NCBI GenBank assembly: GCA_023231475.1
Contig: JALJEE010001081.1
Location: forward strand, 62,001 to 126,000
Length of the DNA: 64,000 bases
Direction: 5' to 3'
Source of the DNA: Seison nebaliae
Lineage: Eukaryota
Every line of letters starts with the position of its first letter. Within the stretch, counting starts at the first letter, position 1. Under the pieces are notes generated by a model. It was not told the origin of the DNA and did no database searches. It saw nothing but the letters and a program-made list of their open reading frames with translations. This document shows, in pieces, positions 716-62,151 of the stretch. The position numbers were made by a program, and so were the translations under genes.

Positions 716-3700
716 ATGATGGATTCTCAATTATTCGAGTGTTCGCCACTCGTACATTACGAATGTCAAGAAGAAAAGAAAATAGTTAAATTTATTTTCG
801 AGTATAAATAAATAAATTAATTTTCATGATAGTTGAAGAATGAAAATAATTCCATATTACGATTCGTCGATAATTTCGTGAAGTTGAAATACATTTAAAA
901 ATTTTTATAATATTTTTTTCAGTTCGAAGAATTTCATTGAAGATTTGATTAGTTATCGAAAGAAAACTTTTTTCAAATTGATCGGAATTAATGAATTGAA
1001 GTTTTCGATTTCTATTTCCCATTATCATCAATACAATTTGTAGCGATATCGTTTATGTGAATGGAGAAGGATTACATATCGTGAGGAATTGTGGTGATAG
1101 GAAAGTAGTGAGTTTATGGGGAGAGAGTTTATTATCATTCGATCAGATCGTTTTAGAATTATTCACATTAAATTGGACGAACGATAATCAGTTTATTGTC
1201 CTCACTGATAATTTCGGAGATGTTCATCTTTTCGATCGATCGTCGAAATATCTCAATAAATTCTCTCATTCGATGAATGAAGGAGAACAAATGAATTTGA
1301 TGAATTCAGTCGCCTCTCTTCATTCACTCGCTCCTCAAACCAATGAGAAATGTCATTTATTTTATTTGACATATTCCGGTCTACTAATCGAAACATCTTT
1401 AAAGTTTTTTTTTAAATTTTGAAAAAAATTTTTTTTTTTAAAATTTCTTAGAAATAATAATGAATGGAATATACATCGATTATTTTGTTTACCAACCGAT
1501 TATGTGATGTTCGGAACGAATCGATTAGATTTGATTTTTCACAAATCACTTCAATTATCGACGTCCATTCAATATGTGATGGTTTATCTACCTTCCACAT
1601 TCGACGATTATCAGAAAGATCCACATCATCGTCCAATTTATTCGACGAACAATTTATTCATGTTATTGGAAACGACAGATGAATCATTTCAATTGATTCA
1701 TTCCCCAAAGAATAAGTTGGAACGATCCTGGTCATGGTTTAGTAATAAGACATCTTATCAATATGTTGTCGATTCAAAATTGAAAGAGAAGTCGAGTGTA
1801 TTCGTAACGAATAAAGGAATTATCGCCATTTATGATTATGAGAAGAATGAAGAATTATTTAATTTGAATTTAAATCGAGTGAAATTATCGGAAAATTTAT
1901 CAATTTCGACTGATGTACAAACGAAAAATCTTCTCGCTCAATTATATGGTAATTCGAATTTTATTTATTCAAATCATCCAATTTCTATCAATTGGTGGAG
2001 AGATGATGAAAATATCATTTTCTTATCAACATGTAATGGAGCATTGATTTTTATCGATATCGATAAATTGAAAAAAATGGAATTGAATGTGGTCGCTTAC
2101 GAAAAGAAAGATGATGATGATGTTATCGTCAATTATGATTTCTATGCGAGAAATCAATTAACAGATGATGATCTTCGATTGATGGATACGTTCCATGATC
2201 GAGAATTGATCGATCTTACAATGCTCCGATCATCGCCAAACGGAATTTTTCTCGTACATCATTTTCTTCCATTCTCTTTCATTCTCACCCAATGGAATGA
2301 AATGAAAATGTTTAATCTTCTCCTCAAATGTAACGTCATTCAAAAATTCAAAAAATTAGTACCTAATTCAAATCGTTTCATTCGATTATTGAGATATTTG
2401 AATATTCCGTTTTTGTCTGATTTCGTTTGTCCACCAAATGAAGCGACTGTTGAAATGAAATGTGAATTGACAATGAAATCCATCGAATGTATTGGATTGC
2501 AACAATTATTTGAGAGGAAACTCACTCATAAAATGTTCGATGAAGCGTTCGATCTTGTTCAACGATATCCACAACAATTGAACAAAGATATTCTTTTCGT
2601 TAATATCTGGCAGAATTTGGAGAAACGGAAATCGAGTGACATCAACAATTATCTTTTCCATATTAAAGATGTTCGTCTATTAATCGAGCAATGTTTGTGC
2701 ACGATCGATAATAATTTGAATATTATTGGAAATTTGATCGATATCGGAATTGAAAAAACGAATTTCCAAATAATTTTAACACAATTACAATTAGAGGAGA
2801 ATTATCGAAGAGAAATCGACATAATTCATTTGGAATTGACAGAGACGATGGAGAAGAGATTTGGAGAGGAGAAATTTCGGACACTACTCAAATTGGAGAA
2901 GAAAAAACAATTGAAATTTGAAAAAGATTTATTCGAATTAAATAAAAATTGGGAGAAATTAAAAATTGTAAAAAAATGGAAAAATATTTCGAAAGATGAT
3001 ATTGATTCGTTGAATTATTTCATTGAGAAACGTTTGAAAATTTTTCGATATTTCGATTATTTCAAAACATTTCTCGAATTACTCGACGATGTCAATATAT
3101 CGATCGGTCATCAATTAAATGAATTAAGAAAGAAAGATTTATTCGAAATCGCTTGTCAATTGGCAGATAAAGGAAATTTGATTCAATTACGTTCAATTTT
3201 CCAAAATCATCTGAAGGAATTATCATCGAATTATTTCTCCATTCTCCTACACATCAACATGGACAGATGTGAATTGAATGAATTACTTCACGTTATTCCA
3301 CTCGTCGAAGAGAACGATCGAATTGTCATTCCAAAATTTTCGCCTCATCGATCCATTCCTGATTGGACGGAAATTTTGATGGAAATGGGAGACGTCGAAC
3401 GGATCGATGAAAAAATGATTTCACAATGGAATCGTCTCGATCCATTCGATTTGAATGAAATTTATTTATTTTATGTAAAATTCATTCGACACATTCTCAT
3501 CACGAACGGAAATATCGATTTTTCTGATCAATTTTTAAAATGTCTCAAATTGTACGAAATAACAAAAAATGATAATTATCGTCGAATGGAAGAAACTATT
3601 CGATTGATGCATCGATTAACATATGTCAATTATTATTTGGATGATGAGGAATTAGAACGACGATGGTATGTCGTTTATGGAATGAATGATGAAGAGGAAT

Positions 3701-6700
3701 TGAAACGAATTCAAATTCACAACATTCTACCCATCGATTTATTCGATCATTTGATGGAATTGGATCGTATTGATCAATTTATATTTTATTTGAATTTTTT
3801 GGAAAAATCGAAAAATATTTCGAGTCAAATATCATCTCTAACTTATTTAACGGATATATTGGAAGAAAATGATTTTTATGAACGGTTTTTTCCCGTTTAT
3901 CTTCGACATCGATTCGAATCGTCAAATTCTCAATTATTCGAAACGATGAATGAAATTTTGAAAATTTTAAATTATTTCGATAAATTTAATTCAAATCGAT
4001 GTGATTTATTGATCTCTTTCATTTTCTCCAAATATCATCAACATCTCACCATCAATTCCATGAATATCGTTCAGATGGAATGGATTCCATTCATCAAACG
4101 TCAATATAATCATCAACATCAAATTCGACCGTTCCATTCACCGTTTTTCTTCGAAAATTCCGTTTTTAACATTTCTTCCATTTTTGAACTGTTGAAATTT
4201 CTGGATAATTTAAATTTTGATGATGATATTCTCCGAGATTGTTCTCCATTCAATATGTGTCGATTGATGATGAATGAGAATGATTTCCAACAATTCATTC
4301 TCACCATTCTTCAAGTGAGTTGTGAGAAGAGAATTATTAATTTCTCTCTCATCAAACAATTGAACGATATAATTGTTAATATGAAAAAATCATCAGGATT
4401 TATTTTTCCGTTTTATGTCGATTGGATTGTGAGGAATGATGAGAACATATCGGAAGTTTCACTTTCAATACCGTTCATGACGGAATTGGATTTGGAGAAA
4501 TTGAAAGAATATTTTGTTGATATTATTCACGAATCGGTCGATGTTAACTCGATTTTGAAAGATTCAAAAACTTTCATCCAAATTCTTTATCTGTTGAATG
4601 TGAAGAAGAAATCGACGACGAATTGGAAATATGTGAAATGTTTAATCGAAATTCTCCAGAGTGTCATTTTGAGGTATACGAGATCGATGAAATCAATGGT
4701 GAAATCGAATAAGAAAGCGTCCGTTCTATTCTCACAATATTTGAAACGATTAACGGAATTTTCAAAAATTGAACTTTTCACATATCGTATCATGCAATGT
4801 CCATTGATGAGAAATGAAAAAGTTCAGTCGTTGGAATCTCTCGATCAATTGACATCACTTCTCCTTCGATTAGTTAATCGAGTAGATAAATTTGAAAATT
4901 TTTTATTATTCAAAAAACTAATAATCGTTTTTCATGATCTCATTTCCTGTAAATCGATCGATTTGAATGATTTGAATTTGATTCAAAAAATTTTCGGAGG
5001 AAATTCAATTGGAAAATCGATAAATTTCTCTGAATTAACAATTTTAATTAATTTGAAAATTTCCGTTTCACTCAAATGGAAATGGTTATTCGTTCAGGAA
5101 TGTCAATCATTTGTGGAATTGGATGAGAGGAATTATCCAGAGATTCTCATTGGAATCATCAAAATGGAAATGGTAAATTGGGAACAATTGACGGATGATG
5201 TTGGATGGATGAATTGGTTGAAATTTATCGTTCTCTCTATCGATATTTCATCGAATGAATCGATGGAAATTATTGATAAGATAAATGAGAAAATTAAATT
5301 TGAATTTGGTCGTGTCGAATCTAATCCGTTAGCGAAGATAACGAACATTCCAATTATCGATAGTTATCGGAAATTCGTTAGAGAAAATTCTTTAAAAATC
5401 CATCCGGAAACCGTCGTGGAACAGATGGTGATGAATGATTCGAAATGTCCAACGGAAAACATTTACGAAGAATTGAGAATGTTTTGTATTAATCGAATTG
5501 TGGAATTGGGAAAAGTGGAAGATGATCTTGGAATTTATGATATTCCATTAAGAAATTTAATCGAATATTATTTGAGAGTTGATGAAGATAATACGAAATT
5601 AGATGAATTTATGAGAAGAATCGATGACGAACAATTTATACAGAAAATTAACGATATTTCCATCGATATCAATAAATGTCGTCAGGATATGAATTATTTC
5701 CAATTCACGTTAAGTGGATTGGCTTATTCAAAAGATGTGGATCAATTAGAAATTGCTTTATTAATTTTAGAACGATTTGTTGGAGAACATTCGAATGAAA
5801 CGGAATATATGAATGATCGTTTAACTGATATTTATGTCGGTTTCTTCGAATTCTTCTTCGTTAATCGATTAGTTGATGATTTCCCATCAAATTCTTATCA
5901 ACATCTTTATTTAGCTCTTCAATCTTACACGGAACAATTCATCAAATTAAATTCTCTCATCGATCAATCAATTTATCCTATTGGAAAAATTTATGAATCT
6001 TCTTTCAATTTTCTCACATTTGTCTCGTTCAAAGGAATTTTAACGAGTCAAATGGACGAGGAAATTGAAAGAGAATTAACTCGAATTAAAAATGTTGATC
6101 ACATTCTCTCGATTGTCATCCTTCTTTATTTCAAATGGACGATTAGTGATAATGATTCGAATGAATCAGGTTTCCTTCATTGTTTGGTGAGGCTGTTTGA
6201 ATTGAACTCTCCAAATCGCATCATCATTCTTCGTCAAATGAAGAAAGCAAATCAGAAAATAGAAAATATAATTTTCGCACTAATCAATCAATTTCCTAAT
6301 CAGTTACAATTCATCGATATTATTCAATTGATTCCATTAATTGGCGATAAAATTCTTCTAAAATTAACTTTCGATTATATGGTGAATCATGAAAAGGTTT
6401 CCTTTATTTTATCTTTAATTATTTTATTATTTCTTCTTTATTTTTTAATTTATTTATCTTTTAATTATCATCTATTTATCATCTATTTATCCTTTATTAT
6501 TATCGGTTATAGTGGGAAGAATATGAGAGAATATTTATTCATAAATATCTCGAAGATAATTCTACAAATTGGTCGTTCTTCATTAATAACCGAAAATTCT
6601 GTTTAGCTGCTGAACATTATTTCTGGTATAGAGAACCGGTATCATTGTTCAGTTGTGAAATGAACGAATTGTTAATGAAAATGAAAATTGACAACGAAAC

Positions 6701-6983
6701 TAGACAACGTGAAGAGAAGGAGAAATTTCTCTATAAATATATCGAGCTATTGCTAGAGGAGGATGGATCAGACGACATGAGACTTTATTGTACTAATCTC
6801 TTACATCGATTTTTCACCTTGGACAATCAGATGAATGAGAATAATAAGGAGATCTCAAATGACGATACGAATTGTGAAGAAATTGGAAAGATCGATATTC
6901 ATCATCAATTGACAGGACAATCAGTTCGTTTTTTCGATCGATGGTTAACGAATAAACGAAAAATGAACAATTCCATTAATTAA
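716..6983 (+). CDS. NBAS: Neuroblastoma-amplified sequence (NBAS/Sec39-like NRZ tethering subunit); exons 716-784, 833-882, 923-1000, 1044-1403, 1452-6396, 6513-6983
   Basis: MFDEAFDLVQRY...DILFVNIW...INNYLFHIKD...IEQCL and DINKCRQDMNYFQFTLSGLA match remembered NBAS motifs. Five GT-AG introns (785-832, 883-922, 1001-1043, 1404-1451, 6397-6512) join the ORFs in frame. The first exons rest on frame only. Confidence 0.85.
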
Positions 6984-7103: not shown

Positions 7104-7601
7104 TTAACTTTTATCATTCCAAATTGATGAGGCAAAATCACCAGCACTATCCTTCCGATAATTGGCGACAGGATAATCTGATGAATATGTCGTTTGATAT
7201 TTATTCCGCATTAATTCCACACTATCCAATTCATGTCGATTCTTCTTTGGCACTTCAGAAAGTGCTACTGGAGTAGATTGTTGATTTTGATTCTGTAATT
7301 TCGTCAACAATGAAGTGAGTAATTCTTCCGCTTTCACTGACATCCATTGGAGAGCGGTACGTTTAATGGAATGAGAGGAAGTGGTGGGTGTTTGTTGTCG
7401 TCTTATCAAATCCGTCTCAGTTTGACGTGCATTGAACGAGTTCTTCTCTCGACTTGCAGAGTAGTTAGAACGACTTGAAATTGGTTTATTTCCGAATGAG
7501 TTTACTGAAAGATTTTTAGGTTCCGTGTCCGATTGACTCTCATCATCGCTGTCATTAGCGAGACGATGATTGAGTGTGGCAGAGATGTCACAATGAAGCA
7601 T
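7104..7601 (-). CDS. Hypothetical 165-aa protein with one YQTTYSSDY motif reminiscent of SAXO/ciliary microtubule-inner-protein repeats
   Basis: Uninterrupted ATG-initiated ORF with coding-like composition. The family is only suggested by one short motif. Confidence 0.5.
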   Translation of the reverse strand: MLHCDISATLNHRLANDSDDESQSDTEPKNLSVNSFGNKPISSRSNYSASREKNSFNARQTETDLIRRQQTPTTSSHSIKRTALQWMSVKAEELLTSLLTKLQNQNQQSTPVALSEVPKKNRHELDSVELMRNKYQTTYSSDYPVANYRKDSAGDFASSIWNDKS

Positions 7602-7893
7602 TGGGAGTATTGGGAATGGTTCAAACGAAAATAGATTAAAAGGAAAAAACTCGAATGAACAGAAAATTTGTTTGAGTTCGAATTCGAGAATTAAATTTCA
7701 TTAAGAAATTGAAATGAAACTAAAGAATAAACAGAGTATTTACTCACAATTACAATAAACTCAAATCCATCAAAACTAATTTTCTATTCTTTTTATTTCA
7801 GTTTTAATGAAATTATAATAAAACTTTTCGAACCAAAAAAAAAATAATGAAATAAAATATATGGAAATTAATGAAAGTCGTTCGATTTGCCGT

Positions 7894-8436
7894 TCAACCG
7901 TCACGACGGTCAGTTACCGTTCTTGGTAAACGAATGACAGATCCGTCCATCGTCTCATCCACATACACTTGACAACCAAGACGAGAACTGAAAGAAATTT
8001 TTTTAAAAATTTGAAAAAAAAAATTTTTAAAATTTTGCAAAAAAAAATTTAAAAAAATTTGAAACGTTTCCGTCAATTCCGTAGCTAGATCGAGCATATC
8101 TAATTCTTCGTCTAATGCTTCGTCGATGCGAGTGAACAATTCCTTGTCCAAAATGAGGTGACATGTACTGCAAGATAAACTTCCTTCACAAGCTCCAAAA
8201 CCATCAAATTCGATATTATTATCAACAATAACATCATACAATGATGCACCTGTTATCGCCGTCAGATTTTTATGATGTCCATCTCTATCGATAAATGTCA
8301 ATTTAACTTTCCTTCACATCAATGGATGAGGAGTGATGAGGAAGAAAAGGAACTTCGTATTCAATTTGTTAGAGACGGTGAGTGAACGAGATAAATGAGG
8401 TAAAAGTGTTCGAACTGTTCGTTGTAAGAGTGACAT
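7894..8436 (-). CDS. FDX1: Mitochondrial adrenodoxin-type 2Fe-2S ferredoxin; introns 8312-8353 and 7988-8065
   Basis: DGFGACEGSLSCSTCHLI, EELDMLDLA and SRLGCQV motifs. Spliced N-terminus MSLLQRTVRTLLPHLSRSL looks like a mitochondrial presequence. Confidence 0.92.
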
Positions 8437-11498: not shown

Positions 11499-11531
<33 letters not shown>

Positions 11532-12718: not shown

Positions 12719-15700
12719 ATGAGAACGATCTTCTCCGTTTTGCTCGTGTGTTGGGTGGAAAGGAGTCTCGGAACATTTGACGCTCGGAAAAAACCGCTTA
12801 TACAATTACATTATCATTGTTTGACAAATGAGAATAATGACAAAATATTTATAGATTGTGCTTCGGATGAGAATTCAAAAATTCATATTTTATCCGCATT
12901 CTATGGACGACATTTAAGGAAGCGAAATCAATTCAATTTCAAAAGTAGAAGATGGAAACGTCACACATTAAATACGAATAATGAAATTGATAAGACAGAA
13001 TCGAGAGAAAATCGTAGGACCATTTTACAAAATATGACAACATGGCAAACGCCGTTTAATGGAAATCAGAAGAAATTTCGTCGATTCGCTACTCAATCAT
13101 CGAAATATTTCCATTGGAATTATGAGAAAGAGAAAGAGGATCTGGAGAATAATATGAATGGAAAAAAACGATCAATTTGTCTCGATAATCGATTATATGG
13201 AGAACCGAATGAATTGGATTGTATCGAATATATTAATTTACAGAATGCGTGTAATGGTAAATATAGTTGCACAATTCGTCCACCACCTCGAATTCTTCAA
13301 CGACTCGAGAAATGTGAGAGATTACGTGTCCATTTGAAGAGTCAACGATTCCAATATTATAATTATAAAATGAAAATTAATAAATTTCGTTCGACTCTCG
13401 AACATCTCAAATATTTGCCATTAGTCGATTATCTCGCAATTTATTATCGATGTATACCAAAGAAACAAATACTTTCCATTTGTTCGGTGGCCCCGTCACA
13501 AATAACGTCGTATTGGGGATCGATAATGTCGCCCAATTATCCGTTACCGTTTAATTATCAGAATTTGTTGAATCGTCAAAAGAATGAAATGATGGATAAG
13601 AAGAAATCGTGTTGGTGTCGATTAATATCGAACGAGAATATCAGATTGAAATTGAAAATTATTAATTTTGAATTGGAGCAACCAAATAATCAGAATTGTG
13701 AGAATAGTGGTTTCCAGATTTATACGATCGCCAGAAATTCGATGGATTCAAATACCATCCTCTCCGCTTTCAATCACAATTCGTTAAGAAAACATCTAAA
13801 ACGATCGGGAACTACAACGAAGAATTCGACGAAGAAACTTGATAATTACTTCTCGTTTCCACACGACAATCCGATAAAATATAACAGTGATCGAAATTGG
13901 TATTATAATTGGAATGAACATTATAAGAAATTCGCTGAGCAATTGCAATTCCAATCTTGTACTTTCCTTCAACCCAACAAAGAATGGATCACACCAGATA
14001 ACGGTGATGTCGTTTATCTTCACTTTTATACAAATATCGGTCCATATTCATTACCGAGTGTACGCGGCTCATTCTGGATCTCATACGAAACTGACTCTGT
14101 CACTTATCCGATTAACACGACCTGTAACTGTTCTGTTCCTTTTGACAAGTCATTCTCGTCGTCGAACGACGATTTACACGACTTCGATAACCAATTCCAT
14201 GAATATGAAGAGAACATTTATGGATTGTGGAGAAGACAAGAGAAACAATTGGAAAAGGAACTTCCTCACACGGAGGGACGGGAAAAAGTCAATTATTTCG
14301 AAAAAGCTCATCGACGAGACACGACGACTCCTAATTATGATCCCAAATTAATATTTGCCATCTTGCACGAACAACCCGATCATCAATCGAACGAAGAATT
14401 GTTGAATAAACATGTCCATTACTCGACCATTCCAGCAACTAACCATATTATCGACAAATACGAAACACATCAGTTCTCAGATTCAAATAAATATCTTTCC
14501 ACTTTTCCACCACAATTCTTCACAAAACCACATAAATTCTTCACTAAACCACCACAATTCTTCACTAATCCAACACAACCTTTCACAAATCCACCACAAC
14601 TTTTCACACATCCACCACAATTCTTCACCCAATCACCACAATTTTTCACAAATCCGACACAATTCTTGCCCACTACATCCGAATCTTCTACTGTTGTAAC
14701 AGCGACTTCCACGGATGATGGAAACATTATGATCGACAATTACATGTTCAATGATTCTGTGTTAACTAATGATGATTATTATTTTTTGACTAACCTATTA
14801 GAAATGACGAATGAGGACGATATTGAACTGAATTTGAATGAGATAAATGGAACGTCTTTTCTCACCACAACCCAATCGACAATCGTTAGAGATACAACTG
14901 CCATTTGGAGAATACAAAATTCATCCATCTCATCGACGTTAAAAGAGACTTCCGTTTCCGTCCCAAGTCATCTTCCAACAATTGACTCTACATCAAATGT
15001 TCATAAAATTTATTCAATCGATCAATCTTCTGTCATTCATCTTCCAACGAATTCACCCGAGACATCTTACACGAAACCGTCAACTTACTTTATTAATGAT
15101 ATTCCTCCAATAACCACCTCATACTTCTCCACGACTTCTCCCCTCATTAATTCGACTTCATCCATCGTTCCTTCCATTCCTTCATCCTTCACTACCACCA
15201 CAATTCGTCGTCGAAAAGAAATGGAAAATTCAAAATTCCATTCGAAACGTCTTCCTTCGTCCACACCATCAGCGATGATGAACTTTACGAAACTCACTCG
15301 AATTCAAGTAGATTCAACAACATTCAATCTTCCAATTTATCAGACACAAGCGAACTCGTTAAGAAACCATCATACGCTCCTCAATTCCACCATCATTCCA
15401 ACTAATAGTCAAACACCAAGTTCATTTTAATTTGTTATTTGACTTATTTTTGAAAAAAAATTTGTTTCTAGAAAATAGTTTAATTATTGCTGGATGTCTC
15501 ATCGCGTCTCTATTAGTCATTGGCAATATCATTCTTTTGTTATTGAGACGGTTTTTTTCGATTTTTCAAATTATTTTAATAATTTTCTGATAGACGATCG
15601 AAAAGGAATGGAATGACTTCCTCGTCTCACATAGCGACGACGTCAACTTCAGGAATATTTCCTGAACGTTGGAGCGAATATGCGAAACAGATCAAATCGA

Positions 15701-17769
15701 AACAGAAAACTTTATTTCGATGTCGTCAATCGAATAAGAGTGAACAACGGAAGAATAATGTGCAAATGTATCATCCAGGAAGAAGTTCCTCTACTCTCAA
15801 ATGTCAAAGTGAAATATTCACTTGTGGCAGTCAAATGCAATCGGAATTATCACTATATCAATTATATGGTCAATCGCATGAAATTGAGAATGATATGGAG
15901 AATCAGTTGAATACAACAAAACCTTCAAATTTCATTAATCAATTAATGAATAATGGAAATAAACAATCAACTGATGATATTCATCCAGCTGCTGGTGAAG
16001 TGATTATGTGGTCGAATGAGAATGATGAAGCACTCGTCACCACTGGTGATGGTGAATGGAATCGAATTGAATCACCTTCTTCATTCATCTCTAATAATAT
16101 CCGTTATACGAAATGTGGTTCAAATAATTATGAAATTAATACGACTATACCAGAAGTTATTAATTATAACTCCTCTCAATTATTGCACGCATCAAATATT
16201 AATTCGATGTCTCGATTTCCAACTGATGTCAATTTGAATTATAATAATAACAATAATAAAATCTCTTTCGATTCATCAATTCAACATGAAAGAAAAGAGA
16301 AAGAATGTAATGAAATCATCGTTCAAAATACTGGAACTTATCTCTCATCGTCCATGTCCACGTTGGATTGTCTGGTGAATAAACGGAAGAATTCCATCAG
16401 TAGTTCCAGTCATCCACATCTCAATGATCGTTATCGAATTGAAATCAAATCAAAAAATGGTCTCTACACAAAACATCAGGTGAATTTGTCAGAACCTGAA
16501 AAAAATCGAAATGATTCCTTCACCACCAACACATTCACTAACGTATCGTCAGGCAAATCGACAGGAAGTGATTACTTCCAACGAATTCCAATTAAGTTAA
16601 TTTCAAATTATGAAACTTCATCAACGAACGAATCGAATGATTCAAAATGTTTATTAATTATGGAACTCGATTCTGAGAGAGAAAATAATTCCAATTTCCG
16701 TTCTTGGGAAAATGATGGGAAATGGAAGAAAATATCAGAAAACTCACCCATATTTAACAAAGCCAATTTCCATAAACGACGAAAGAAGAAAAAAAATTCG
16801 AAACATCTTAAACAAAATTATCATTATCCGTTGTCATGGAAACAGAAGTGGAAGAAAAAAAAATCAATTTCTTCCCCAAAAACAATCCCGCGAGTATGGA
16901 ATACTAAATATTCTTCCTCTACAACAACTACTTCAACTGATAGTCATTTATCGATTCATCCGTTAGGAGCGGAATTTGGAACTTTGAAAAGATCTCATCA
17001 AATTCACGAAGAAGATATGATTTTCTACAACTCCATTCCCAAATATGAGCAGAGGAATTGTTCCTATTTTCAAATGACAGGAACAGAATCATCATCGCTG
17101 AGTTTAATATCGAATATTTCAAATTCAACGACGAAAACTGCACCACTCAACGAAATGAATTATCATGAGAATCCAATAAATTTTCATAATTATCGAAAAA
17201 GTTAATTTTCTTCTTTTCTTTCTTTCCATTTTAAAATTTTAATTGTAGATGTAAATCAATCTGATGATTTAGAGAATAATAATTCCATTCCCATCAAACA
17301 TTTTCTCCTCCATCAACATCAGTTGATCTCCTCCACATCCTCTTTCAGTATTTCACTCACTCAAACGAAGACGAAACAATCACCATCTAATTCCACAATA
17401 ACCTTCGACAATTCTCTCTCCGATTCTCCTAAACATAATCAGAAGTTAGTGAAAAGAGGACGTTCTTTTGCGAAACACAACGACAGTCAAACTATGTTCG
17501 TTAAAGAATTAAAGTCGCTAATCGAAGAAAGAAGATGTGACGGCAGAACACATTCCTTAAACACTTCCCGTCCTGAGGTGGAGACAGTTAATGAAATGAA
17601 AGAAATCGAATTTCAACATATTCAACTGAAACCGGTCAATCAACGTCGTTTCGCCTCAATTCCTGCCACAATGGATTCATCAATTATACAATCATCATTT
17701 CAGAAATCAATTGAAAATGAGGAGAAGAGTAACGTACAACGTTTAATTCAAAAATTCTCCAAAGAATAA
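12719..17769 (+). CDS. Single-pass membrane protein: signal peptide, SUEL/galactose-lectin-like domain, CUB domain, Ser/Thr mucin stalk, TM helix, long low-complexity cytoplasmic tail; introns 15420-15471, 15551-15593, 17201-17248
   Basis: IDC...IHILSAFYGR...CNGKYSC...YLAIYYRC (SUEL-like) and GSIMSPNYP...CWCRL...IINFELE (CUB). A short exon at 15472-15550 encodes TM LIIAGCLIASLLVIGNIILLLL followed by RRRSKR. Splicing joins the three ORFs in frame. Confidence 0.75.
14507..14668 (+). repeat. Coding 21-bp tandem repeat, about 7.7 copies (PPQFFT[K/N] heptad)
   Basis: Units such as ccaccacaattcttcacaaaa start at 14507, 14528, 14549, 14570, 14591, 14612, 14633 and 14654. Confidence 0.95.
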
Positions 17770-42600: not shown

Positions 42601-42963
42601 AAGATAAAGAAGGATTGCGTAGAAAGAACGATTTGATTGCATATAATAAACGAAGAAAGGAAAAGATGAACTTTAAAATAATCAGTACATTTCTAATAAT
42701 CAACATCCTTTTTTAATAATCTCTTACCACCACTTTAAACAACTGCCATTATATCATCAATTTGAAATCTCTTTAGATAAATCTTCAGATTAAATTAGAG
42801 TTCATTTCCCAATTTTCATTAGTGAACAAATGTATTTTATTGAGGGAAATATCCAATAAAATTATTAGTCAATAAAAAAAAATAAATAATATCAAACAAA
42901 TGATTTTTAGTTCTGAAACATGAAAACAATTTAGAAAAATCCCATTGAATATTTAGATGATTT

Positions 42964-45900
42964 TCAGTTCGGTGGTCTCGGTTCCAATTTCAACGACATT
43001 TCATACAAGTCGTCTGTCCGAATAAATTTTGTGTCATCCAGAAGATAATTCGCCACCTAAACAACAAATAATTATTAAGTAAACTTTAATTAAATTAACT
43101 GTTTGATTATGTGTTAATTTATATGGTACTTCTTGGAAATTCTTAACATCTCGAATGATGAGTGAAATCTAAAAAGAAATTATTGAGAATATTAAAAGGA
43201 AAAATAACCAATCTCATTTTGGAGAAATTGATGAGATTATCATCAATGGTGTCTGGTGTTCCGTCTTCCAGGAACGTCAGATCATGAAGATATGTTCCCA
43301 AATATGGAACGGTAGGTGGATCATGTCTTTTCAGGAGGATTGACGAAAAAGAAAAATGAGAATGAACTTTTGTAACAACTCTCTCATGTTCTTGAACATT
43401 CCATCACTGGAGACAATATTTTGTAATTTTTGAATAGTTTGACGACACTAACAAATGGTGAGAAGAATTATAAGAGAAATGGTGAAGAATAAAAACGTGT
43501 AGATGAGATTCTAACTAATTTCGGTACTTTTTCCCAAGTTCGTTGAAGACGGAAAACTGCCGAGTTATTAAAAGCAGAAATGATTTGGAGAATTCCATTA
43601 TAATTCTGTAACATTCGACAAGTGTCTGCCACCTGTCATAACAACAACATCAATTTTCCGATCAAAATAATCATCAGAATTGAATTGTCCGATGGAAATA
43701 ATATTAAATAGAATTTAAAAATTATTTTAAAAATAAATTTAACTTGAGTCCATTTTTCTATGATACATATTCTTTCGCGAATATTCTTACTTTGTACGAC
43801 TTCGTTCACTACCAATTGAGACATGTGATTGAATCGTGAGCTAACTAATAAGACATGAGATGGTTTCTTTTCTTTATCATCTTTCTCCCATCTCTTACAA
43901 ATGAGTTCTCTAGAAAAGGAAAAATTTTGAAATTAGATCGCATCAAATTGAATTAACTCACTACGAATAAGAGAGAAGAGAAGATGATCCATCAATGTCA
44001 TTTGCTCGGCAATCTCGATGGGCGAGAAAGAAGGATAATTCTCACACTTCTTATCCAAAGTGAAGATTTCGATGGGCGAGATATCATATTTCGTTCTAGC
44101 GTTCAATAATTTCAAGGATTGAACGAATGTTAAATCTCCGGAACTATTTTTCGATTGTTCGTCTGGTCGTTTGGGTCGAATTCCCACGAGTTGTTCCAGA
44201 AGTAGAACTGACGTTCGATATTCAACTTCAGTAACTGATGGAGAATATAATAAATTTTCAAGGAAACTAAAGACTCGATCTTTCAATTCGATGGATTGTT
44301 CGAAATCCTTTATGAAAAAGTTGAGAGAGAGATGAAAGAAAAGAAATAACAACGGCATGTTTGGTGATCCAATGACGGAAAATGTTGAGAACTCTCATCG
44401 TTTTAGCAGTGGGATGTGTTTTCGTTTCACTCATAATATTTGGAGTTTCTATTTTAAATGATGGTTTCATTTGGTGATTTTGTTGTATTTCATTCTTGGA
44501 GGAATTGTCTGATCGATATTGTAATTGTGTTGAAATTGAAGAACCATAATTTCTCTTCGTTGAACGGAACATTGGAGAATCCATTCCAGTGGAAGAACTG
44601 TCGGCGGCTGAATATCTCATGTAATTCATTCCACTTTTTACTTTAGGTTTTGGTAAATTTAAATTATTTTCTATCGCTGATGATCTCTGTCCGGTATTCT
44701 CTTCTTCTTCTTCCTCCTCTTCAAAATCAAAATTTTCAGAAACCGTCGGTAACATGTTCGTTTTGAGTGGTTGTCTCGTTGGCATGTTGTTGTGGAGAGA
44801 TGATAAACTTGGCGATTTTTGAGATCCAGAAGTGGCAAGAGCAAAAGCTGCTGATGCTATTTGACTTGATGATCTGATAGAAAAAAATTTAAAATTGATA
44901 GAAATTAAAAAAATTTTTTTTTTGAAAAAAAAAAAGAACCTTCGACGTCCTATTCGGCCGGCTGTTACGACAACAGCAGGTGAAATTTTACAAGTGGAAT
45001 TTCGATCGGATTGTTTCGCCCGAAGTATCGACACTCTGGGCGAAATTAAAGTTTCGGTTAATCTTTTCTGGAAATCTTCTTGTATCTGCTCCTTTGGATG
45101 ATATTGACGATAAATGGAAGAAAAAATGAATTTTAACGACTTCCTCTAATGGTTTGTCACATCGATTACATCTCGGTCCGTCGATTGATTCGTCTAAATT
45201 AAATTCGATATTTATCGGACTCTCTTCTCTTTCGTCATTCGATGGATCGTTCGTCACTATACTACTGGAATCGAATGAGGCAACTGGTGCCAACAAAGCG
45301 TTTCTTTCATCGTCCTCATGTAACTTCATAGAATCATCTTCCTCTTCATTCTTCTCGTCATCTTCTTCTAATTTATCATCAGTGAGAATTGTTTCTTTAT
45401 TTTCATTTAATTCATTGAAACATTCTTCTTCTAAACTCTGATAAGTTAATGGACGAATAATATCTGCGAATGGAATTAATGAGAATGAAATTAAGATAAA
45501 GTAAAAGAACTTTCAAGTGTTATATATTCCGAATATTTAGTGGGACGTTTTAGAATATTCTCCAGAAATGATTTTCTCACTTTGACGAGATGTTGTGGAA
45601 AATCTTCAACATCTTTCAATTTATCATCCCGATGTTCTTTGTATCCGTAGGAATGTAAGACATCCACAATAATTTTCCCATGTGATTTCTTCGGATATTC
45701 GTACATATTGAATAGAATATCAACAATCGCATGTACGTAAATGTAGACGCGATATGTCAACAGGAATATGTTGAGATAATCGATCGATAAGAATCTCAAG
45801 TCGATTAGACGATCGAGAATTCTTTCAATTTTCCCATAACGAATCTAAACAATAAATCCATTTCATTCCAATAAATGGAAAACTTGTGGTACTTTACACG

Positions 45901-48900
45901 AGTTCAATGCTTTAGCATATTTTATATTGTTGTCATCTTTAAATAATTTCGAATCATTCCTGTTAATTTCAAATCAAGCAAATTATTTCTTCTTAAGAAT
46001 TAATGAGTGCCTAACCAAATAGCCGTATTATAAACACATCGATTCTTCCTTTTGAAAAAGATCAAGATTTAATTGAAAATTATATGAAGAACCTGGCTTT
46101 GGTTGATGATGTTGATAATAAAGCCGTTTCCGTTATGGCACCAGATAATAAATCAGAGAAATGGATATTTTCGATACACTGATAATTTTTAAAGTTTGGA
46201 ACAGAATTTATTATAGTGAGTAGTTAAAAATTGAACTTGAGCGATATCTGCACACCAAGCCTGTTTATCTTCTTCCGTGGCCGCCATGAAGATCATGGTT
46301 ATGGTACTTCTCTTTTTCGTTGATATGACCGCCTCGTTAGTGAATGAATCGGAATCAGTAGAACTTTCATTCGATCGTTTTCCATACTCTTCATTCTCGA
46401 ACACAATTCGAAATTCTCGAGAAACATTTTTACTATTAATTCAAATAATTTATTGGACAAATTAAATTATTTATTAATTAATTTAAATTATTTATTAATT
46501 AATGAAATTGAAGAGAAATTCACCTCAATGCCTTTATAGGATCGGCTTGATTGGTCTCGATCGCATTCTGTTTCAACACGTTAATTAAATGAACGGAAAG
46601 TCTTTGAAGAGAATTATTCTTCCCATTATGTAACATGTCATTACAATCGTTGAAATCTAAAGAATAAAATGATCGACTAAATGGAAAATCCGAATCAATA
46701 ACATAGACAAGATGATACGTCTTCGATTAAAGTGGCATATTTCAATGGAATGACTGCTCCTTCCTAATGGAAAATTTAATTAATTTTAAAGTTAAAAAAT
46801 CAATTTTGAAAAAACGGTAATTCTACCGTTTATTCAACCTTAGCCAATACGAGAAGTCCTTGCGAATTTCGAGTGGTTATAATCATATGATTCGTAAACA
46901 GATAGCATTGTCGAGTCACATCTTTCTTACACGTGATATCGATATTTCTCTCACCTAAAATATTTGCACCTAAAATGCACAAATTAAATTTGAAAAATAT
47001 TTATTTCGATGAAACATAACTGCTATTTGTCATCCGATTAAATGCTTGTTGGAATTTGTTACTTCGTTGACTTTTCATAAGACTACTCATTTGGTGGAGT
47101 GTACCGTTTCGAATCAACGTTTGTGATGTGTCCAATAAAGCCTCACATCCTCCGACGATCATTCTTTCGATACCTAAATTCGTACGGATATTTTCCGTTT
47201 CGGAAATTTCGTTCGACATCTGATTTGACAACTCTTCTAATTTGGCTTTAGCCGATTCCAAACTTTTCCGTTCGATATGTTGATGTGGAGTACGTGCTAG
47301 TAATTCTCCTAAAATGATGATATAATTAGGTATAATTTCCATCGGGAGAGCGAGATACTCCTCCAAAGAATTCCTCATACAATTCGATTGTATTCCTGAA
47401 AGTTTCATCTGACACTCAATTGGAGAAGATTTGGAGTTAAATGGAGAGAAACTTTATTAAAAAAACGATCGAGAGTTTGACGGAACATCGGATAAGTTTG
47501 TTTACACTCCGTCAATATCTGAAGTGAATAATGATGATTCCTGACATAATCTTGATAGATGTGGAGCATTGGTAGTAGCAAATCAAATAAATCACCTTTA
47601 TAAAAAAATTAAATTTAAATAAGGAAAATTTCATGTTAACCCAAAATTAATTTCGGCCAATTCTCCATTCGAACAAGTAGTCCTTTGAAGAAGATTTGAT
47701 GGAGGAATAACAAATGTTCGATATTGAGAAAGATGGAATTAATTTCTTCATGTGATAACGGAGGATTTCTGGAGGAAGCCGCTATACGTAACGGTCTCAA
47801 AATGTATAAGATCACAACTTCTAACGTTCCAACATATCTTATGATTTGGAGAATTTTTAAATTATTATTTTTAAATTATTATCAATAAACTTTTCTTCAT
47901 TCGATAACATATTGAAAACGATACGATTCCTTTGTCGCATGTTGGTGGCGTGTGGCGATTTAATATATTCTTCGACAATATTCTTCCATCTCTTCCGATA
48001 AAGCCAACCGCGACACAATGATTGTACCTTGAAATTGAGATTAGATCCAATCCCTCCAAAAAAGAACGAGAACTTTCTTAATTTTTCGAATTTCATCAAT
48101 CTCCGAATCAGCTATCGTCTTTTGTTTTAAGAGTTGATGTTGTTTTGAATATTTCTTCAATTCTTGTCTCAATTCCTTCACTTCATGTCCTAATTCTTCC
48201 ACTTGATGCATGTACTCCCAGATGGCACATTGAGCTGAATTATACAATTTTTGACAATGTTCATATTTATGAACCCATTGATGTTTCTGGGAGATGGCAT
48301 GATTATATCTATAAATGAAATGAATTAAATTATAAATTTTAATTATATAATTTGAAAGTTAAAAAATATGAAAATTTGAAAATTAAGAGATGGAAATAAC
48401 CCGCATAATAAGAGAGCTTCGGTCCATTCACTTCTAACCGAATCACTTTCAGCTGCGAAATCCAATTGCGATTGTCCATCTCGCGAATAGAGGAGACTGA
48501 AACAATACTAAAATAAGTGAATAAATTATGATCAGAATTATGATAATTGAAAAAATAACGAGATTCCTTTTATCGTTCAATTGTCCAGGAGCGATATTGG
48601 AAGAGTTGTTTACAGTGGAAGTTATGCTGTTCGTACCACTAGTGTTTGGTAAGTTGCAAAAAGGAACATTGAACTTCTCCGTGTACGTACTCTCCAGAAA
48701 GTAGACGTAAAGTAATTTGTTGAGATTGTCATGTTCGAAAATGAAAATGAGATTTTGAAATAGGACGATATGTTTGAGGGACCATTTGACGGAGGAGGTG
48801 GAAGCTTCGGTTGGTCGTTTAATGCGCAAGACACCTTTCTTCGTCGGTTCAAGAAGAGCTCGGGCCGACAACGATAATATTCTGGATTCATTAATTTTTG

Positions 48901-48910
48901 TTGGTGGCAT
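42964..48910 (-). CDS. RASGRF1: Ras-specific guanine nucleotide-releasing factor (RasGRF: PH, IQ, DH, PH, REM, CDC25), about 24 short introns; a possible extra 5' exon from 49090
   Basis: [18 protein letters not shown] (IQ), [16 protein letters not shown]...[16 protein letters not shown] (DH), [17 protein letters not shown] (REM), [13 protein letters not shown], and [22 protein letters not shown]...INFSKMR (CDC25). Ends LEPRPPN-stop at 42964. Confidence 0.93.
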
Positions 48911-51359: not shown

Positions 51360-54140
51360 TCAAAAAATTGAATTTGCTGAAATATATACTGTGAAGTAGA
51401 GTATCGGTTGTATGAGTATAAGGAGATAAAGGTTATTCTTCAACATTAGTGACCTGTTGGGATTGAAATAAAATGCTTTCGTTGGTTTCGTCCGATCGAT
51501 GAGCACACCGTCCAAAGTGTAAATGATTCCATTATCTGCTCTCATTTCTTCTTTGACCGGTAGTACAATATTCTGCCATTTCACTCGAGTGAATGAACCC
51601 GATTCAAATTGTAACATAACACTACTCTCGTCATCCATCAGTAACGAGTATTTTTTGCTATTTCCCATTTTCTGCGGAGAAACTTCTCCTTGACTGTAAA
51701 TATGTCGCTTAGTGATCGAATCCCTCAATCGGTGGTGATCCGTATTGTAGATCTGAGAGAAAGCTTCATCATTTGGAACGAATATAGTGTACGATTGTCC
51801 ATTAGCAACATCTCTCAATTTGCGGTCATATCCTAAAGTAACGGAAAATTTTTTAAATTGATGGAAATTAAATAGAAAGGAAACCTAAAGCTTTAAGTCG
51901 TTGGAACATTGTAGAATAGTCGTTAGCCGTCGATAATAATTTCCAGATACTTCCCATCTTCAATTTAATCAACGGGTAATTGATGATGTGGAGAACTCCA
52001 TTCGAGGCTTCATAATTTCCTCGACGACTCACACTCTGTCCTATCAAGTGACTGTTATTGAAAGCTGTGAAAGTAGCTGAAGGTAATTTGAGTAATCTGT
52101 TCTCGAAATCATCTCGATTCTTATCAGTCAACGAATATGAAGCGACGTTGCTCTTTCTTATTTGAATTTTGACGGATGGTTCGAACGTATCATAATTCTC
52201 ATCAATTTGGTCATTATATTCGGTGAAAACGGCACCCCGAATAATATGAGATCGAATAAACTAAATATATTAAAACGATGAAAAAAAAGAGACAAATGAA
52301 AATATCTAACTGAATCAACTCTCGCTTGATTCTTCACCAGATTCGTATCATTTTCAATTTGATCGAACATATCAGCTGATGGTGCTAAAACGGTGATATG
52401 ACAACCTTGTTCACAGCCAATCATTCTGAATCGACTAATCATTTGTTCTTTACATCTGTTGATTAATTGTAAACGATGTTGATGTTCCTCTTGTTTATAC
52501 TACAAAATGATAATTCATAATAATCTTTTAAATTTGAATAAATTTGAAATTTAAACTTTCATTTCTAAAACGTTTTTGAAATCAGATCGTTTCAATTCCT
52601 CCTCACTCAACTCATTTGACGTTTGTAGAATGTTGATAATTGGATTGGGGAAAACTGAGAGAATATTTCGGACATTTGGACTTCCCAATTTATGAATAAA
52701 CGACAAAAAACGACGTGCATGACGGTCCATCGTCACTGTCATTGTTTCCGTGGTGAAATCAAGTAAACAATCGATGAGATGAATAACGGACGTGCGGAAC
52801 ATTATATTACCATTAACGATTTTACATCGACGATTGCCACTAATCACCAGAATCGTATCATCATATCGTTGAAAATAAATTTTCCTTTTCTTCGCTTCAT
52901 ATTTCGGATCACTAAACGTTTCATATTGTGTGTCATTCATCATATTCTCAGTGAAGACAGCACGTTCCGGTATGATACTCGCCGTCAAACTTTGTATGGT
53001 ATCGAACGTGATATTTTTCCATCCTAATCGATATCGATCCGCTAAGGAAACGGTCGAACAATCTTCGGGTATTTTAGCTTGACCTTTATACAAGAAGAAA
53101 TCGAGAACTGTCGTCATTGCGTGATCGATAGGAAGGAAATATGTTCCTTGTTGTTCGAGTGTTCTCGGGAAATGTTGATATAATGTGTTGATACTCGATA
53201 AATTAGTAATTAATAATTGATTCAATTTCGAAAGACTGGGAGTTTTACTGATATAAGTGAAAACATTATCCTCTTTCGGAATTTTCAATCGTTTGGAAAT
53301 TAAATACAAATTACCATTCTTCGTTTTGATGGCTGACGCACAAACGAGTGCATCATTTACTGTAAACAATTTATAGAAAGTGGAATATAATTCATTGAAG
53401 CCTTGATTGATCAGAATTTCTCTTTGCACTTTCACCGTTACGTTTTTCTTCTTTTTCTTATTATCCTTCGGATTTGAACGTCGATGAGAAATAAAACTTG
53501 GACGTTTAGAAATTCGAACTTTCTTTCGAATTCTCTCAACATTCTTCAATCTAATTTGATTCTTTCGTCGAATTTCCAATTGCTGATAAAGTGGCGATGT
53601 CTCGTCATATAAATGCCACAAAGAATCTTTACAAGAGGTCGATTCGAAAATTGAACCGAATGGATTTGTTAGATCGATATACTTCTTCGTTTCACCAATG
53701 GTGAGTGAGAAGGATTTATCTCGATAAAATGTCACTGGCTGGTTATTGTACAGTGCGTCTTTTCTGACAATTTCCGTTTGAATTTTATCGTCATCGAGAA
53801 CATTCTTTACTAAATGATAAAGATATTCATTTTCTTTATTCATCGCATACTGAAATTCGTTGGATTTGGAATCATCGTCATCCTCTGTATTTCCATCATT
53901 CAATTCGAATGCGTCGTTTATGGGAGCGAAGAATGTCAACATCGATGTCGTATCCTGGAGAGCGGCTTTGATGTGATGGAGATTCGATATGGATTCACGT
54001 AACTTCTCCAATTTCGGATGTTTCATCACCACATCATATAGAGTGTCACTTGACAATGAACGGGAGAGATGGATGATTGGAAAGATGAACAATATCAAAT
54101 GGAATATCCTCATGGAATGAACAGCAGTTGCCAAGAACAT
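51360..54140 (-). CDS. Fasciclin-1-like cell adhesion protein with multiple FAS1 domains, probably GPI-anchored; introns 52500-52556, 52261-52310, 51833-51884
   Basis: Signal peptide. H1 motifs TFFAPINDAF, TYFLPIDHAM, TVLAPSADMF, TIFVPNDEAF. H2 motifs TKNGNLYLIS, ASNGVLHIIN, ADNGIIYTLDGVL. Hydrophobic C-terminus. Confidence 0.88.
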
Positions 54141-59074: not shown

Positions 59075-59512
59075 ATGAAGAATTTGTTCTTTCTTTTCAT
59101 CTTTCTCGTCCACGGACAATTTTGCGAGCAACATTTCGTGGTGAAAGATGGTTGGCAAGTCGAAGGTACTTTCGGTCGTTTCATGGATCTCTTACCAGAC
59201 AATGATCCTGTCGGTCATGAATATGATCGACAAGTTGGCGCTTCATTGTCATTCTCTTGGCCGTCGTCAGTCGTTAGTGCGAATATCGGATCATCCGATC
59301 TCATGGATTTACCGTACAATTTCCGCAATTTACCTGACTATAATGCCGCAATCGGTACCATAACCAAAGTGTGCATCGAAGCATGTTCAAAGGATATGAG
59401 TTGTCGTGCATTTAACATTAATTTGGATCGTTTCCGTTGCGCTTTCCTCCAAGACGTGAGACATTTGGAGAGAAAATCTTCTTCGATCAGTTTGGTGCCA
59501 AATCAATTATAA
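59075..59512 (+). CDS. Small secreted protein with a PAN/apple-like module
   Basis: Signal peptide MKNLFFLFIFLVHG and CIEACSKDMSCRAFNI...CAF cysteine pattern. Confidence 0.7.
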   Translation: MKNLFFLFIFLVHGQFCEQHFVVKDGWQVEGTFGRFMDLLPDNDPVGHEYDRQVGASLSFSWPSSVVSANIGSSDLMDLPYNFRNLPDYNAAIGTITKVCIEACSKDMSCRAFNINLDRFRCAFLQDVRHLERKSSSISLVPNQL

Positions 59513-59668
59513 AATTATTTGAAAAAAAAAAATTTAAAAGTTATTTTAAAAAATTCAGTATTGACTCTTTAAAAAGATGTTTGTGGAATGATGATGTTTC
59601 AAAATGTTTTCGGACAATAAAATTTATTTTCTTTTAATTACAAAATTATTAATTAAATTATATCCAAT

Positions 59669-60110
59669 TCATTTGAGGAGAAAGAAAGAAATTGCGATTG
59701 TTAAGATGATAAGATAAGATTGTTGACTAAAATTAGTCGCTGAGTTGCACAAATTCGTTTTACAACAATATGTCGCTTTATAGTATCGTTGTTCGTAATT
59801 GACCTCATTCAATTCGGCACAACTCGGTGCGTCACATGTTCTCTCTACCACTTCCTTCCCATTAAATCCGACGACGATCCTTTTCTACGAATAAATAATT
59901 AGTGTAGAAATAAGTGAAGGAATTACTAACGGCACATGCTCCTTTACACGGAAGAATTAATACGGAACTAGACGAGTTTAAATTTTTTTTTGCACTGCAT
60001 TCCTTACTTGCTGGACATCCGTAACAGTACAAACCGTCATTGAGCGAATTAACGAAATAAGGAAGAAGAGTGATGAAAATGAAGAGTAATTGAATGTTAT
60101 TAAGTTTCAT
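59669..60110 (-). CDS. Ly6/uPAR three-finger (quiver-like) GPI-anchored protein; intron 59885-59930
   Basis: Signal peptide, LYCYGC...C...CKGACA|KRI...ERTC...C...YCCKTNLCN, then a hydrophobic tail. Confidence 0.88.
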
Positions 60111-60576: not shown

Positions 60577-61104
60577 ATGTCAATCCATCATTCCTATTTA
60601 TTTCTGTTGACGATTCTTCATTTGTCAAGTTTCACTTCTCTAAACAACTTCTCTAAACTTTTATCCTCTTTTGATAGTTAAATTTGGAGAAAGTGTAAGA
60701 TGTGTCGCTTGTGACTCCATGACCCAACCGACATGTACTGCCAATTTGACGTATTCGACATCTCAAATAGCGAAGACGAAAGCTGACGGAATTAGTTCGC
60801 TTGAATGTGGAGGAATTTGTCAAGTTACTTTATTTTCTTATTTTAAAATATTTTAAAAAATTAATTTTAGAAAATCATTTATAGAAAAGGATCTCAATAT
60901 GGGCAACCAATAGGAGCCAAACGATCATGTGGTACTGCATGTAATGAAGTGAGGAAACAGGAATCAGGAACATTTATTGAAATTAATTGTTGTAACGATA
61001 AGGATTATTGTAATGGCTCATTTACCATCAATTCATTGAACTTCATTCCATTATTTACACCAATTCTCATCATCATTACTTTTCTGAGAGAGATCATGAA
61101 ATAA
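60577..61104 (+). CDS. Second Ly6/uPAR three-finger GPI-anchored protein; introns 60629-60677 and 60824-60870
   Basis: Spliced product: signal peptide, VRCVACDS...C...CGGICQ|KII...KRSCGTAC...NCCNDKDYCN, then a hydrophobic tail. Confidence 0.88.
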
Positions 61105-61202
61105 ACATGAAACATTTTTCAATAATATATACAATGAATTGAAATTTAAAATGAAAGATTTTTTTTTTTTAACGAAAATAAATTGTAGAAACGAAACGAA
61201 AT

Positions 61203-62151
61203 TCATCCATCGTCTCCATAACGCGCTTTTTGTGTATCCGATAAATTCTCTTCTTTTTTCAACGACAATTTCCAATTACGAGAACCGACCGAAAATTGGT
61301 TAGAATCGACTATGAGATTACTTAAATTTTTTAATGATCGATTCTCCACATTATCATGTTGACGGAAACTTCGAATTTCATCATCGATCTCTTTTAAATT
61401 TTCTGATTTAATTTTATCTAAAGAACAATTTGTTAACGGAGAGAATTAGATCGAGGAAACTTTCAGTATTTTTGAAAAAATGTTCTAAAGAAATTTGTTT
61501 GTCGATTTGTTCGTATTCGAACGCCTGAACGATCATGTCCATCACATCCAATTCCTTCACATATTTCGCTTCAGCTGTCGATTGATTCTCATATTCCTTT
61601 AATGAATTTAATTTAAAATTAATTTGGAAATTAGTAAACGAACTTGCCAAATGTCGAAAATATTTATACGAATATCTTCATTCGGTATTAGAGATATGAT
61701 ATCTTGAAATGATTTCTGACAAAATAATTTTATAAAATTATTTTTTAAATAATAAAAATTAGAAACAAATTCTCTTCGATGTTTTTCTTCTTTTTTGATG
61801 TGATCAGCTGGAATGAGATCTCCAGTGAGACATTCGGCCAAATCGTGAACAACGGCCATTTTCATACATCTAAATCAGGAAAACGGTATAAGAACCATCA
61901 AAATCGATTAACTTCGTCATATCGATGCCTTTGGGATTATCGAGTGTCAATGTCATCAACGTCATTCGATACATGTGGGAACTGATTGTTTCCACATTAT
62001 CGTACACATGAGAATGAATCCAACCACTTCTTAAAGTTCTCTGGAAAAGAAATGGAATAAACAGGAAATGGAAGAGAAATGGAAAAAAAACTTTCGTTTG
62101 ACCGATAACTAGAAGGAATTCCAAGATATCACTAATCCTCTTTTTTGACAT
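61203..62151 (-). CDS. HDDC2: HD-domain 5'-deoxynucleotidase, 5 introns (including 62041-62091 and 61870-61912)
   Basis: K|RTLRSGW, ETISSHMYRM, MKMAVVHDLAECLTGDLIP, EEKHRRE and EYENQSTAEAKYVKELDVMDMIVQAFEYE. Confidence 0.93.

What the first reader, a model, noticed from the sequence alone, without database searches (positions are those of the whole stretch)
785..62091. Near-universal GTT 5' splice sites: a possibly rewired spliceosomal donor code in an animal
Seen: I placed about 45 introns in 8 genes (NBAS 5, FDX1 2, lectin-CUB 3, RasGRF 24, fasciclin 3, Ly6 1+2, HDDC2 5). 44 begin GTT, for example gttaaa 785, gttgaa 883, gttttc 1001, gttttt 1404, gtttcc 6397, gtttca 8065, gttcct 8353, gttcat 15420, gttaat 17201, gttaat 43099, gttatt 43208, gttcat 43367, gttctc 48073, gtttaa 52556, gttagt 59930, gttact 60824 and gttttt 62091. 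The one exception is GTGAAT in RasGRF, and none is GTA. Many junctions are fixed by conserved residues on both sides (ELTET|SRLGCQ, IKK|VQSL, KVPQ|IRYG, FSKMRL|ISLII), though a few in poorly conserved segments had alternative GT choices. Known: the animal consensus is GTRAG, with a +3 purine pairing with U1 snRNA; a U at +3 consensus is known to me from Entamoeba (GUUUGU), not as the rule in animals. Inference: this lineage has an altered U1 5' arm or U6 ACAGA region, or protein-based (U1C/Luc7/Prp8) recognition of +3U.
Basis: partly seen in the sequence, partly recalled or inferred. Interest (0 to 1): 0.92.

Follow-up and report, generated by a model that had tools for sequence, protein, structure and literature searches.

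The report
GTT intron starts in a rotifer
Nearly every intron checked in this DNA from the marine rotifer Seison nebaliae starts with GTT instead of the GTA or GTG used by other animals, likely because its splicing machinery (most likely the U1 RNA, untested) has changed the letter it reads there.

Summary
The window matches Seison nebaliae (96-99% protein hits). In its three public gene models 31 of 32 introns begin GTT, 1 GTG, none GTA. An aligner blind to +3, with non-Seison profiles, puts 13 of 13 well-supported junctions at GTT. AT bias does not explain it: an unnamed, equally AT-rich, short-intron animal clade from metagenomes has GTT at 7 of 70 donors (3-4 of 14 per species). Twelve intron positions are shared with other animals, 11 mostly GTA/GTG there, so old donors appear converted in place. 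+5G is nearly lost (4 of 32), and AAG acceptors are common (7 of 32). No RNA reads, genome, snRNA or splicing protein could be examined, so the junctions rest on homology and the mechanism is inferred: most likely U1 has A opposite +3, as in Entamoeba. Unlike Entamoeba, +4U and +5G are missing and genes are intron-rich. Ten literature searches found no report for this animal. The scan noted GTT donors before in protists (Bonamia, foraminifera); my look-ups showed no animal case.

The parts
42967..48910 (-). RasGRF gene (public model SNEBB_007626), 24 introns of 39-111 nt: 23 GTT donors, 1 GTG
   Evidence: vertebrate-profile tests
46433..46523 (-). The one non-GTT intron: GTGAAT after exon end AG, 91 nt, in a stretch without homology; an in-frame GTT lies 54 nt upstream
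43448..43515 (-). RasGRF intron whose GTT start is also seen in a divergent low-depth copy (letters differ from +4 on)
   Evidence: tables 7 and 8, runs X1 and X2
51363..54140 (-). Fasciclin-domain gene (SNEBB_007627), 3 introns, all GTT (52556, 52310, 51884)
61206..62151 (-). HDDC2 gene (SNEBB_007632), 5 introns, all GTT (62091, 61912, 61766, 61643, 61460)
   Evidence: (ungapped against human HDDC2 at all 5 junctions)
7897..8436 (-). Adrenodoxin-type ferredoxin gene, 2 introns, GTT at 8353 and 8065; the second is fixed by homology
716..6979 (+).
12719..17769 (+).
59669..60110 (-). Small cysteine-rich Ly6-like gene, 1 modelled intron with GTT at 59930; non-GTT alternatives exist
60577..61104 (+). 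Ly6-like gene, 2 modelled introns with GTT at 60629 and 60824
   Evidence: weak UPAR_LY6 match, below cut-off

Best explanation
The introns of this Seison nebaliae window start GTT instead of GTA/GTG, likely because the spliceosome now selects U at +3, most likely through an untested change of the U1 snRNA base opposite +3 from U to A. Shown: ordinary short GT-AG introns at old positions, with a donor reduced to GTT plus weak traces (-2A 19 of 32, +4A 16 of 32). Inferred: an A in U1 pairs only with U, which would explain why one letter is used rather than the A/G pair that the usual U allows, and why GTC is absent. Pairing stays weak, so the short T-rich intron body and proteins would supply the rest (intron definition). 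Inferred route: relatives already tolerate GTT when -1G or +5G compensates, so a variant U1 copy could have spread and T-biased mutation moved the remaining donors.
For: 31 of 32 public-model donors are GTT; the blind aligner gives 12 of 12 in RasGRF and 1 of 1 in ferredoxin. The control clade has the same interior GT-to-T rate (65 of 96) and intron length (median 54) but GTT at 7 of 70; per species 3 of 14 and 4 of 14, P = 5e-5 and 2e-4 against 12 of 12. All 7 of its GTT donors carry -1G or +5G, against 11 of 31 in Seison (P = 0.003), so GTT here is not a tolerated weak site. 0 GTC of 31 pyrimidine donors (P = 4e-4) fits A, not G, opposite +3. A at U1 base 6 raises mean pairs from 5.5 to 6.4 of 11. 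Precedent: Entamoeba and Mastigamoeba U1 changes (10.1101/2022.06.08.495308).
Against: No U1 was seen. Even with the changed base the modelled duplex is weak (-2.7 kcal/mol, against -4.6 for the control clade with ordinary U1), and G at that base scores as well or better (-3.1); the gain in pairs follows by construction. +5G is 4 of 32 and +6 is at background, so U1 pairing as a whole looks eroded. Most lineages with atypical donors keep an ordinary U1 (yeast, Giardia; Fritillaria has two U1 versions with identical 5' ends and its change is laid to U2AF and m6A). Frequent AAG acceptors (7 of 32 against 2 of 70) point to protein changes as well. By position, 5 of 15 positions in the control clade already have a GTT donor.
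Confidence: 0.5

Rival explanations
1. The GTT rule is real but U1 and U6 are ordinary; proteins (U1C, Luc7, a TIA-1/Nam8-type U-rich binder, Prp8) or changed base modifications select +3U.
For: Pairing beyond +3 is at background; acceptor -3 is relaxed, a position read by Prp8 Gln1594 (10.1101/212811); about 35% of BUSCO metazoan genes are missing in this species (PMC8351084); Fritillaria precedent.
Against: I know of no protein that selects U at exactly +3 (recalled); +3 is 97% T while +4 is only 25% T, unlike a U-tract binder.
Confidence: 0.3
2. U6 decides: its G opposite +3 has changed to A, or the ordinary G prefers a G-U wobble once U1 matters less.
For: +3 purines pair only weakly with U6 G44 (PMC11732430); +3U could add pairing to an ordinary ACAGA box.
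Against: U6-led selection should keep +5G (4 of 32 here) and an ordinary G should accept GTC (0 of 32); this box is highly conserved (recalled).
Confidence: 0.1
3. No selection at +3: T-biased mutation in T-rich introns has drifted the position to T.
For: Intron interiors are 49% T and GT is followed by T in 21 of 31 interior cases.
Against: 31 of 32 exceeds even that rate (P = 6e-5); neighbouring +4 and +5 are 25% and 38% T; the control clade with the same composition uses GTA at 62 of 70.
Confidence: 0.04
4. Artefact of gene models or of one window: predictors and readers chose GTT, or long introns elsewhere use GTRAG.
For: No RNA junction was seen; 3 of 24 RasGRF junctions are unresolved by homology, one slightly favouring GTC; 8 of my 13 own models have alternatives; all introns tested are at most 116 nt.
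Against: 20 of 24 RasGRF donors are fixed as GTT by frame or vertebrate homology; the same blind aligner finds GTA/GTG in other animals.
Confidence: 0.06

Closest known systems
Entamoeba GUUUGU donors with a co-evolved U1 (ACAAAC); Roy and Bowser preprint 10.1101/2022.06.08.495308
   Same: Near-universal U at +3 in GT-AG introns that are AT-rich.
   Different: Entamoeba also fixes +4U and +5G (96.9-98.5% GUUUGN), is intron-poor and has a position-constrained branch point. Seison has +4T 8 of 32, +5G 4 of 32 and 4.0 introns per kb of coding sequence in the three public models, and is an animal. Its U1 is unknown.
Fritillaria borealis non-canonical introns (PMC13326754)
   Same: An animal whose splice signals were reshaped genome-wide.
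   Different: There 95% of introns escape GT-AG and the change is laid to U2AF duplicates and m6A. Here all 45 introns are GT-AG and 12 RasGRF positions are shared with other animals.
Two-class animal donors, AG//GUNNN and NN//GURAG (PMC11732430)
   Same: GTT donors occur as a minority, helped by -1G; seen in the control clade (7 of 7 with -1G or +5G).
   Different: 20 of 31 Seison GTT donors have neither -1G nor +5G, so they fit neither class.
GTT donors noted earlier by this scan in Bonamia and in foraminifera (unchecked AI notes)
   Same: GTT as the main or a major donor; one Bonamia note also mentions AAG acceptors.
   Different: Protists. The foraminiferan type is a one-base shift of the usual signal, which is absent here.

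Membership tests
U2-type GT-AG spliceosomal introns | GT start and AG end, with the reading frame restored on removal | tested here: met
   45 of 45; only GT or GC starts were allowed in the mapping, and all 32 public-model introns mapped with GT and no mismatch
U2-type GT-AG spliceosomal introns | No U12 donor motif (motif recalled) | tested here: met
   No donor has A at +3
U2-type GT-AG spliceosomal introns | Removal shown in RNA | not testable with these tools
   No RNA holder listed; the runs laid were contigs without joints
U2-type GT-AG spliceosomal introns | Usual animal donor consensus GTRAG | tested here: not met
   +3 purine 1 of 32, +5G 4 of 32
Entamoeba-type transformed donor system | Near-universal +3U | tested here: met
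   31 of 32
Entamoeba-type transformed donor system | +4U and +5G (GUUUG) | tested here: not met
   +4T 8 of 32, +5G 4 of 32
Entamoeba-type transformed donor system | Low intron density | tested here: not met
   32 introns in three genes, 4.0 per kb of coding sequence; genes were chosen for having introns
Entamoeba-type transformed donor system | Compensatory change in the U1 5' end | not testable with these tools
   No genome held; no Rfam match in the window
Entamoeba-type transformed donor system | Strong branch-point motif | tested here: inconclusive
   YTRAY in 20 of 32 introns against 13.9 in shuffles, P = 0.018, the best of 7 patterns tried
Shifted-register donors (GTT then the usual signal one base on) | G at +6, GTTRAG-type starts | tested here: not met
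   +6G 2 of 32, GTTRAG 0 of 32
Fritillaria-type non-canonical introns | Non-GT/AG ends at new positions | tested here: not met
   All GT-AG; 12 positions shared in place and phase with other animals

The most novel reading that the evidence does not exclude
Seison is the first animal known to have rewritten its donor code: a changed U1 snRNA reads GUU, and the introns of an intron-rich genome were converted in place, leaving a three-letter donor with almost no other signal and a relaxed acceptor.
Probability: 0.45. Interest if true: 0.9.

Novelty: new variant of a known kind. Interest (0 to 1): 0.78.

Why it matters
The +3 purine is among the most constant letters of animal splice donors. Reshaped donors have been tied mainly to intron-poor protists, on the argument that few introns can co-evolve with the machinery (10.1101/2022.06.08.495308). 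An intron-rich animal whose old introns switched to GTT would break that link. It makes one question directly testable with existing public assemblies: does U1, U6 or a protein set the +3 letter, and how can such a change spread over thousands of sites? Comparing Seison with bdelloids, monogononts and acanthocephalans would date the switch. In practice, gene prediction for this lineage needs its own donor model.

Tried and rejected
No whole genome is held, so no genome-wide logo and no snRNA or splicing-factor search. Rfam finds nothing in the window. No RNA holder was listed; four runs laid on 42500-43700 were contigs with no joints, which says nothing on expression. A second loose end (run X3, last exon) stops 34 nt before the acceptor at the contig end, so its donor cannot be read. 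A 36-letter piece in X2 is probably chance. A codon-usage scan for further exons was too noisy to use. Pfam did not name five of the long or short ORFs tried and gave only sub-cut-off or near-cut-off hits for others. Branch-point patterns were at or near shuffle level. A shifted-register reading was rejected. The blind aligner's 10 poorly supported RasGRF junctions (4 GTT, 3 GTA, 3 GTC) were set aside by the same filter used for the controls. The control clade could not be named. Scan look-ups by place, relatives and sequence were empty.

Full report
Source. Three window stretches hit proteins of Seison nebaliae at 96-99% identity: RasGRF SNEBB_007626, fasciclin-domain SNEBB_007627 and HDDC2 SNEBB_007632. 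The window is about 33% GC. A genome paper gives 31.9% GC, compact genes and two genetic lineages for this species (PMC8351084, passages).

Observation. All 17 cited donors read GTT. Mapping the public proteins with +3 unscored gave 32 introns without a mismatch: 31 GTT, 1 GTG, 0 GTA, 0 GTC; lengths 39-111 nt, median 51. With 13 introns of my own models the count is 44 of 45, but 8 of those 13 have non-GTT alternatives. I therefore rest on the 32. How the public models were made I did not see; two isoforms differing by a tandem acceptor suggest transcript support but do not show it.

Independence from annotation. With a profile of 40 vertebrate RasGRF proteins (the first 40 of 89 long hits) I scored every frame-keeping GT-AG pair within 30 nt of each of the 24 junctions. 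7 have one solution (6 GTT, 1 GTG). 5 have only GTT options. 9 have a non-GTT option but GTT scores best. 3 are unresolved, one favouring GTC by 2.3 bits. A spliced aligner blind to +3 placed 22 junctions; the 12 with both flanks at 5 bits or more are all GTT, and the 10 weaker ones are 4 GTT, 3 GTA, 3 GTC. The ferredoxin junction is GTT with a profile of 45 other ferredoxins. HDDC2 aligns to the human protein without a gap at all 5 junctions.

Chance and composition. T follows GT in 37-40% of the window, intron interiors are 49% T, and interior GTs are followed by T in 21 of 31 cases. Against 0.68, 31 of 32 has P = 6e-5. The next positions are not T-rich: +4 is A16 C7 G1 T8, +5 is A12 C4 G4 T12.

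Control. A metagenome scan gave 44 related loci; I aligned 38, leaving out 6 that looked like duplicates of others. 126 of 209 junctions passed the same filter. Fifteen AT-rich loci gave 70 distinct donors; 14 of them form a clade (100/99) that joins Seison only weakly (94/55, long branch). That they are rotifers is my inference from composition, intron size and tree, not shown. They have median intron length 54, interior T 44% and GT followed by T in 65 of 96, yet +3 is A62, T7, C1. These 70 are not independent: they fall on 15 positions, 5 of which have a GTT, and the best-covered species have 3 of 14 and 4 of 14 GTT (P = 5e-5 and 2e-4 against 12 of 12). Ten other loci, some in the vertebrate clade, gave A14, G12, T3 of 29. 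Three passing junctions of divergent paralogues (2 GTA, 1 GTT) are in neither group.

History. Twelve Seison RasGRF introns share place and phase with these animals; at 11 the others are mostly GTA/GTG, at one both relatives are GTT. So the GTT donors sit at old positions; conversion in place is inferred. In runs X1 and X2 a low-depth divergent copy of one exon (17 differences in 122 letters) aligns over exactly the acceptor AG, the exon and GTT, then departs. That is one site at depth 3-4, read from an alignment end: weak support that a second lineage shares the rule.

Other signals. All 7 GTT donors of the control clade have -1G or +5G, against 11 of 31 in Seison (P = 0.003). +5G is 4 of 32 against 29 of 70 (P = 0.006). 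AAG acceptors are 7 of 32 against 2 of 70 (P = 0.004) (the 70 are not independent). Branch-point motifs are barely above shuffles. There is no shifted register.

Mechanism, all inferred. In the usual register U1 base 6 faces +3 (established knowledge; U1 end as in PMC3033335, one passage). A there would pair with U alone; G would also accept C, and GTC is 0 of 31 (P = 4e-4). The change lifts mean pairing from 5.5 to 6.4 of 11 but leaves the duplex weaker than in the control clade, so proteins and the short T-rich intron must help. Entamoeba and Mastigamoeba show that such U1 changes occur, while yeast and Giardia show that atypical donors often keep an ordinary U1 (10.1101/2022.06.08.495308; parts 1-3 of 9, passages and one discussion section). 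U6 G44 faces +3 later (PMC11732430, passages), but U6-led selection should keep +5G. Prp8 Gln1594 reads acceptor -3 (10.1101/212811, passages), so AAG acceptors hint at protein change too. Fritillaria, the other animal with reshaped signals, is explained by U2AF duplicates and m6A (PMC13326754, abstract and first part of the discussion). I put U1 at 0.5, proteins or modifications at 0.3, U6 at 0.1, no real rule at 0.1.

Novelty. Ten searches of the held library (listings and abstracts) found no description of Seison donors. 'Seison' with 'spliceosom' and 'Syndermata' with 'splic' and 'snRNA' gave 0 papers. The genome paper's passages on introns concern gene length only, and its two supplements hold none of the four terms searched. 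A lamin paper mentions only alternative splicing in Seison (PMC10125929, passages). A 30-species donor survey (PMC10599564, passages) showed no such case in what I read. Subscription journals and bioRxiv supplements were not visible, so a remark in an annotation paper could be missed. Nematodes have a raised but minority +3T (recalled). The scan's notes on Bonamia and foraminifera are unchecked parallels in protists.

Verdict. A real, lineage-specific GTT donor rule in an intron-rich animal, shown for one window of short introns by homology, not by RNA; mechanism open and testable with public data. New variant of a known kind; interest 0.78.

Noticed in passing
window, acceptors of the 32 public-model introns: AAG at 7 of 32 acceptors, with no clear pyrimidine run or branch motif beyond the T-rich background; 2 of 70 in the control clade.
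   Followed up: partly
window 45086-45092 (-): Tandem acceptors 6 nt apart (AAG and CAG) give the two public RasGRF isoforms P0122 and P0001.
   Followed up: partly
window 42974-43634, runs X1-X3: Low-depth contigs of a divergent copy of RasGRF exons (about 86% identical) occur beside the exact copy; its acceptor before one exon is AAG where the window has CAG.
   Followed up: partly
window 21500-42500: About 21 kb without a recognised coding stretch in an otherwise compact window; it may hold long introns or untranslated exons, whose donors are untested.
   Followed up: no
window, interiors of the 32 introns: GTA is rare inside introns too (1 of 31 interior GTs, against 31% A).
   Followed up: no
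window 18597-21326 (-), 7107-7697 (-), 62252-64000 (+): Long open frames (910, 197 and at least 582 aa) with no Pfam match; 59069-59509 (+) has a weak PAN-domain match.
   Followed up: partly
L004, L016, L020-L022, L024-L027, L030-L033, L036, L041: Unnamed AT-rich animal clade with introns of about 54 nt, donors mostly GTA with +5G in only 29 of 70, and TAG at 63 of 70 acceptors.
   Followed up: partly
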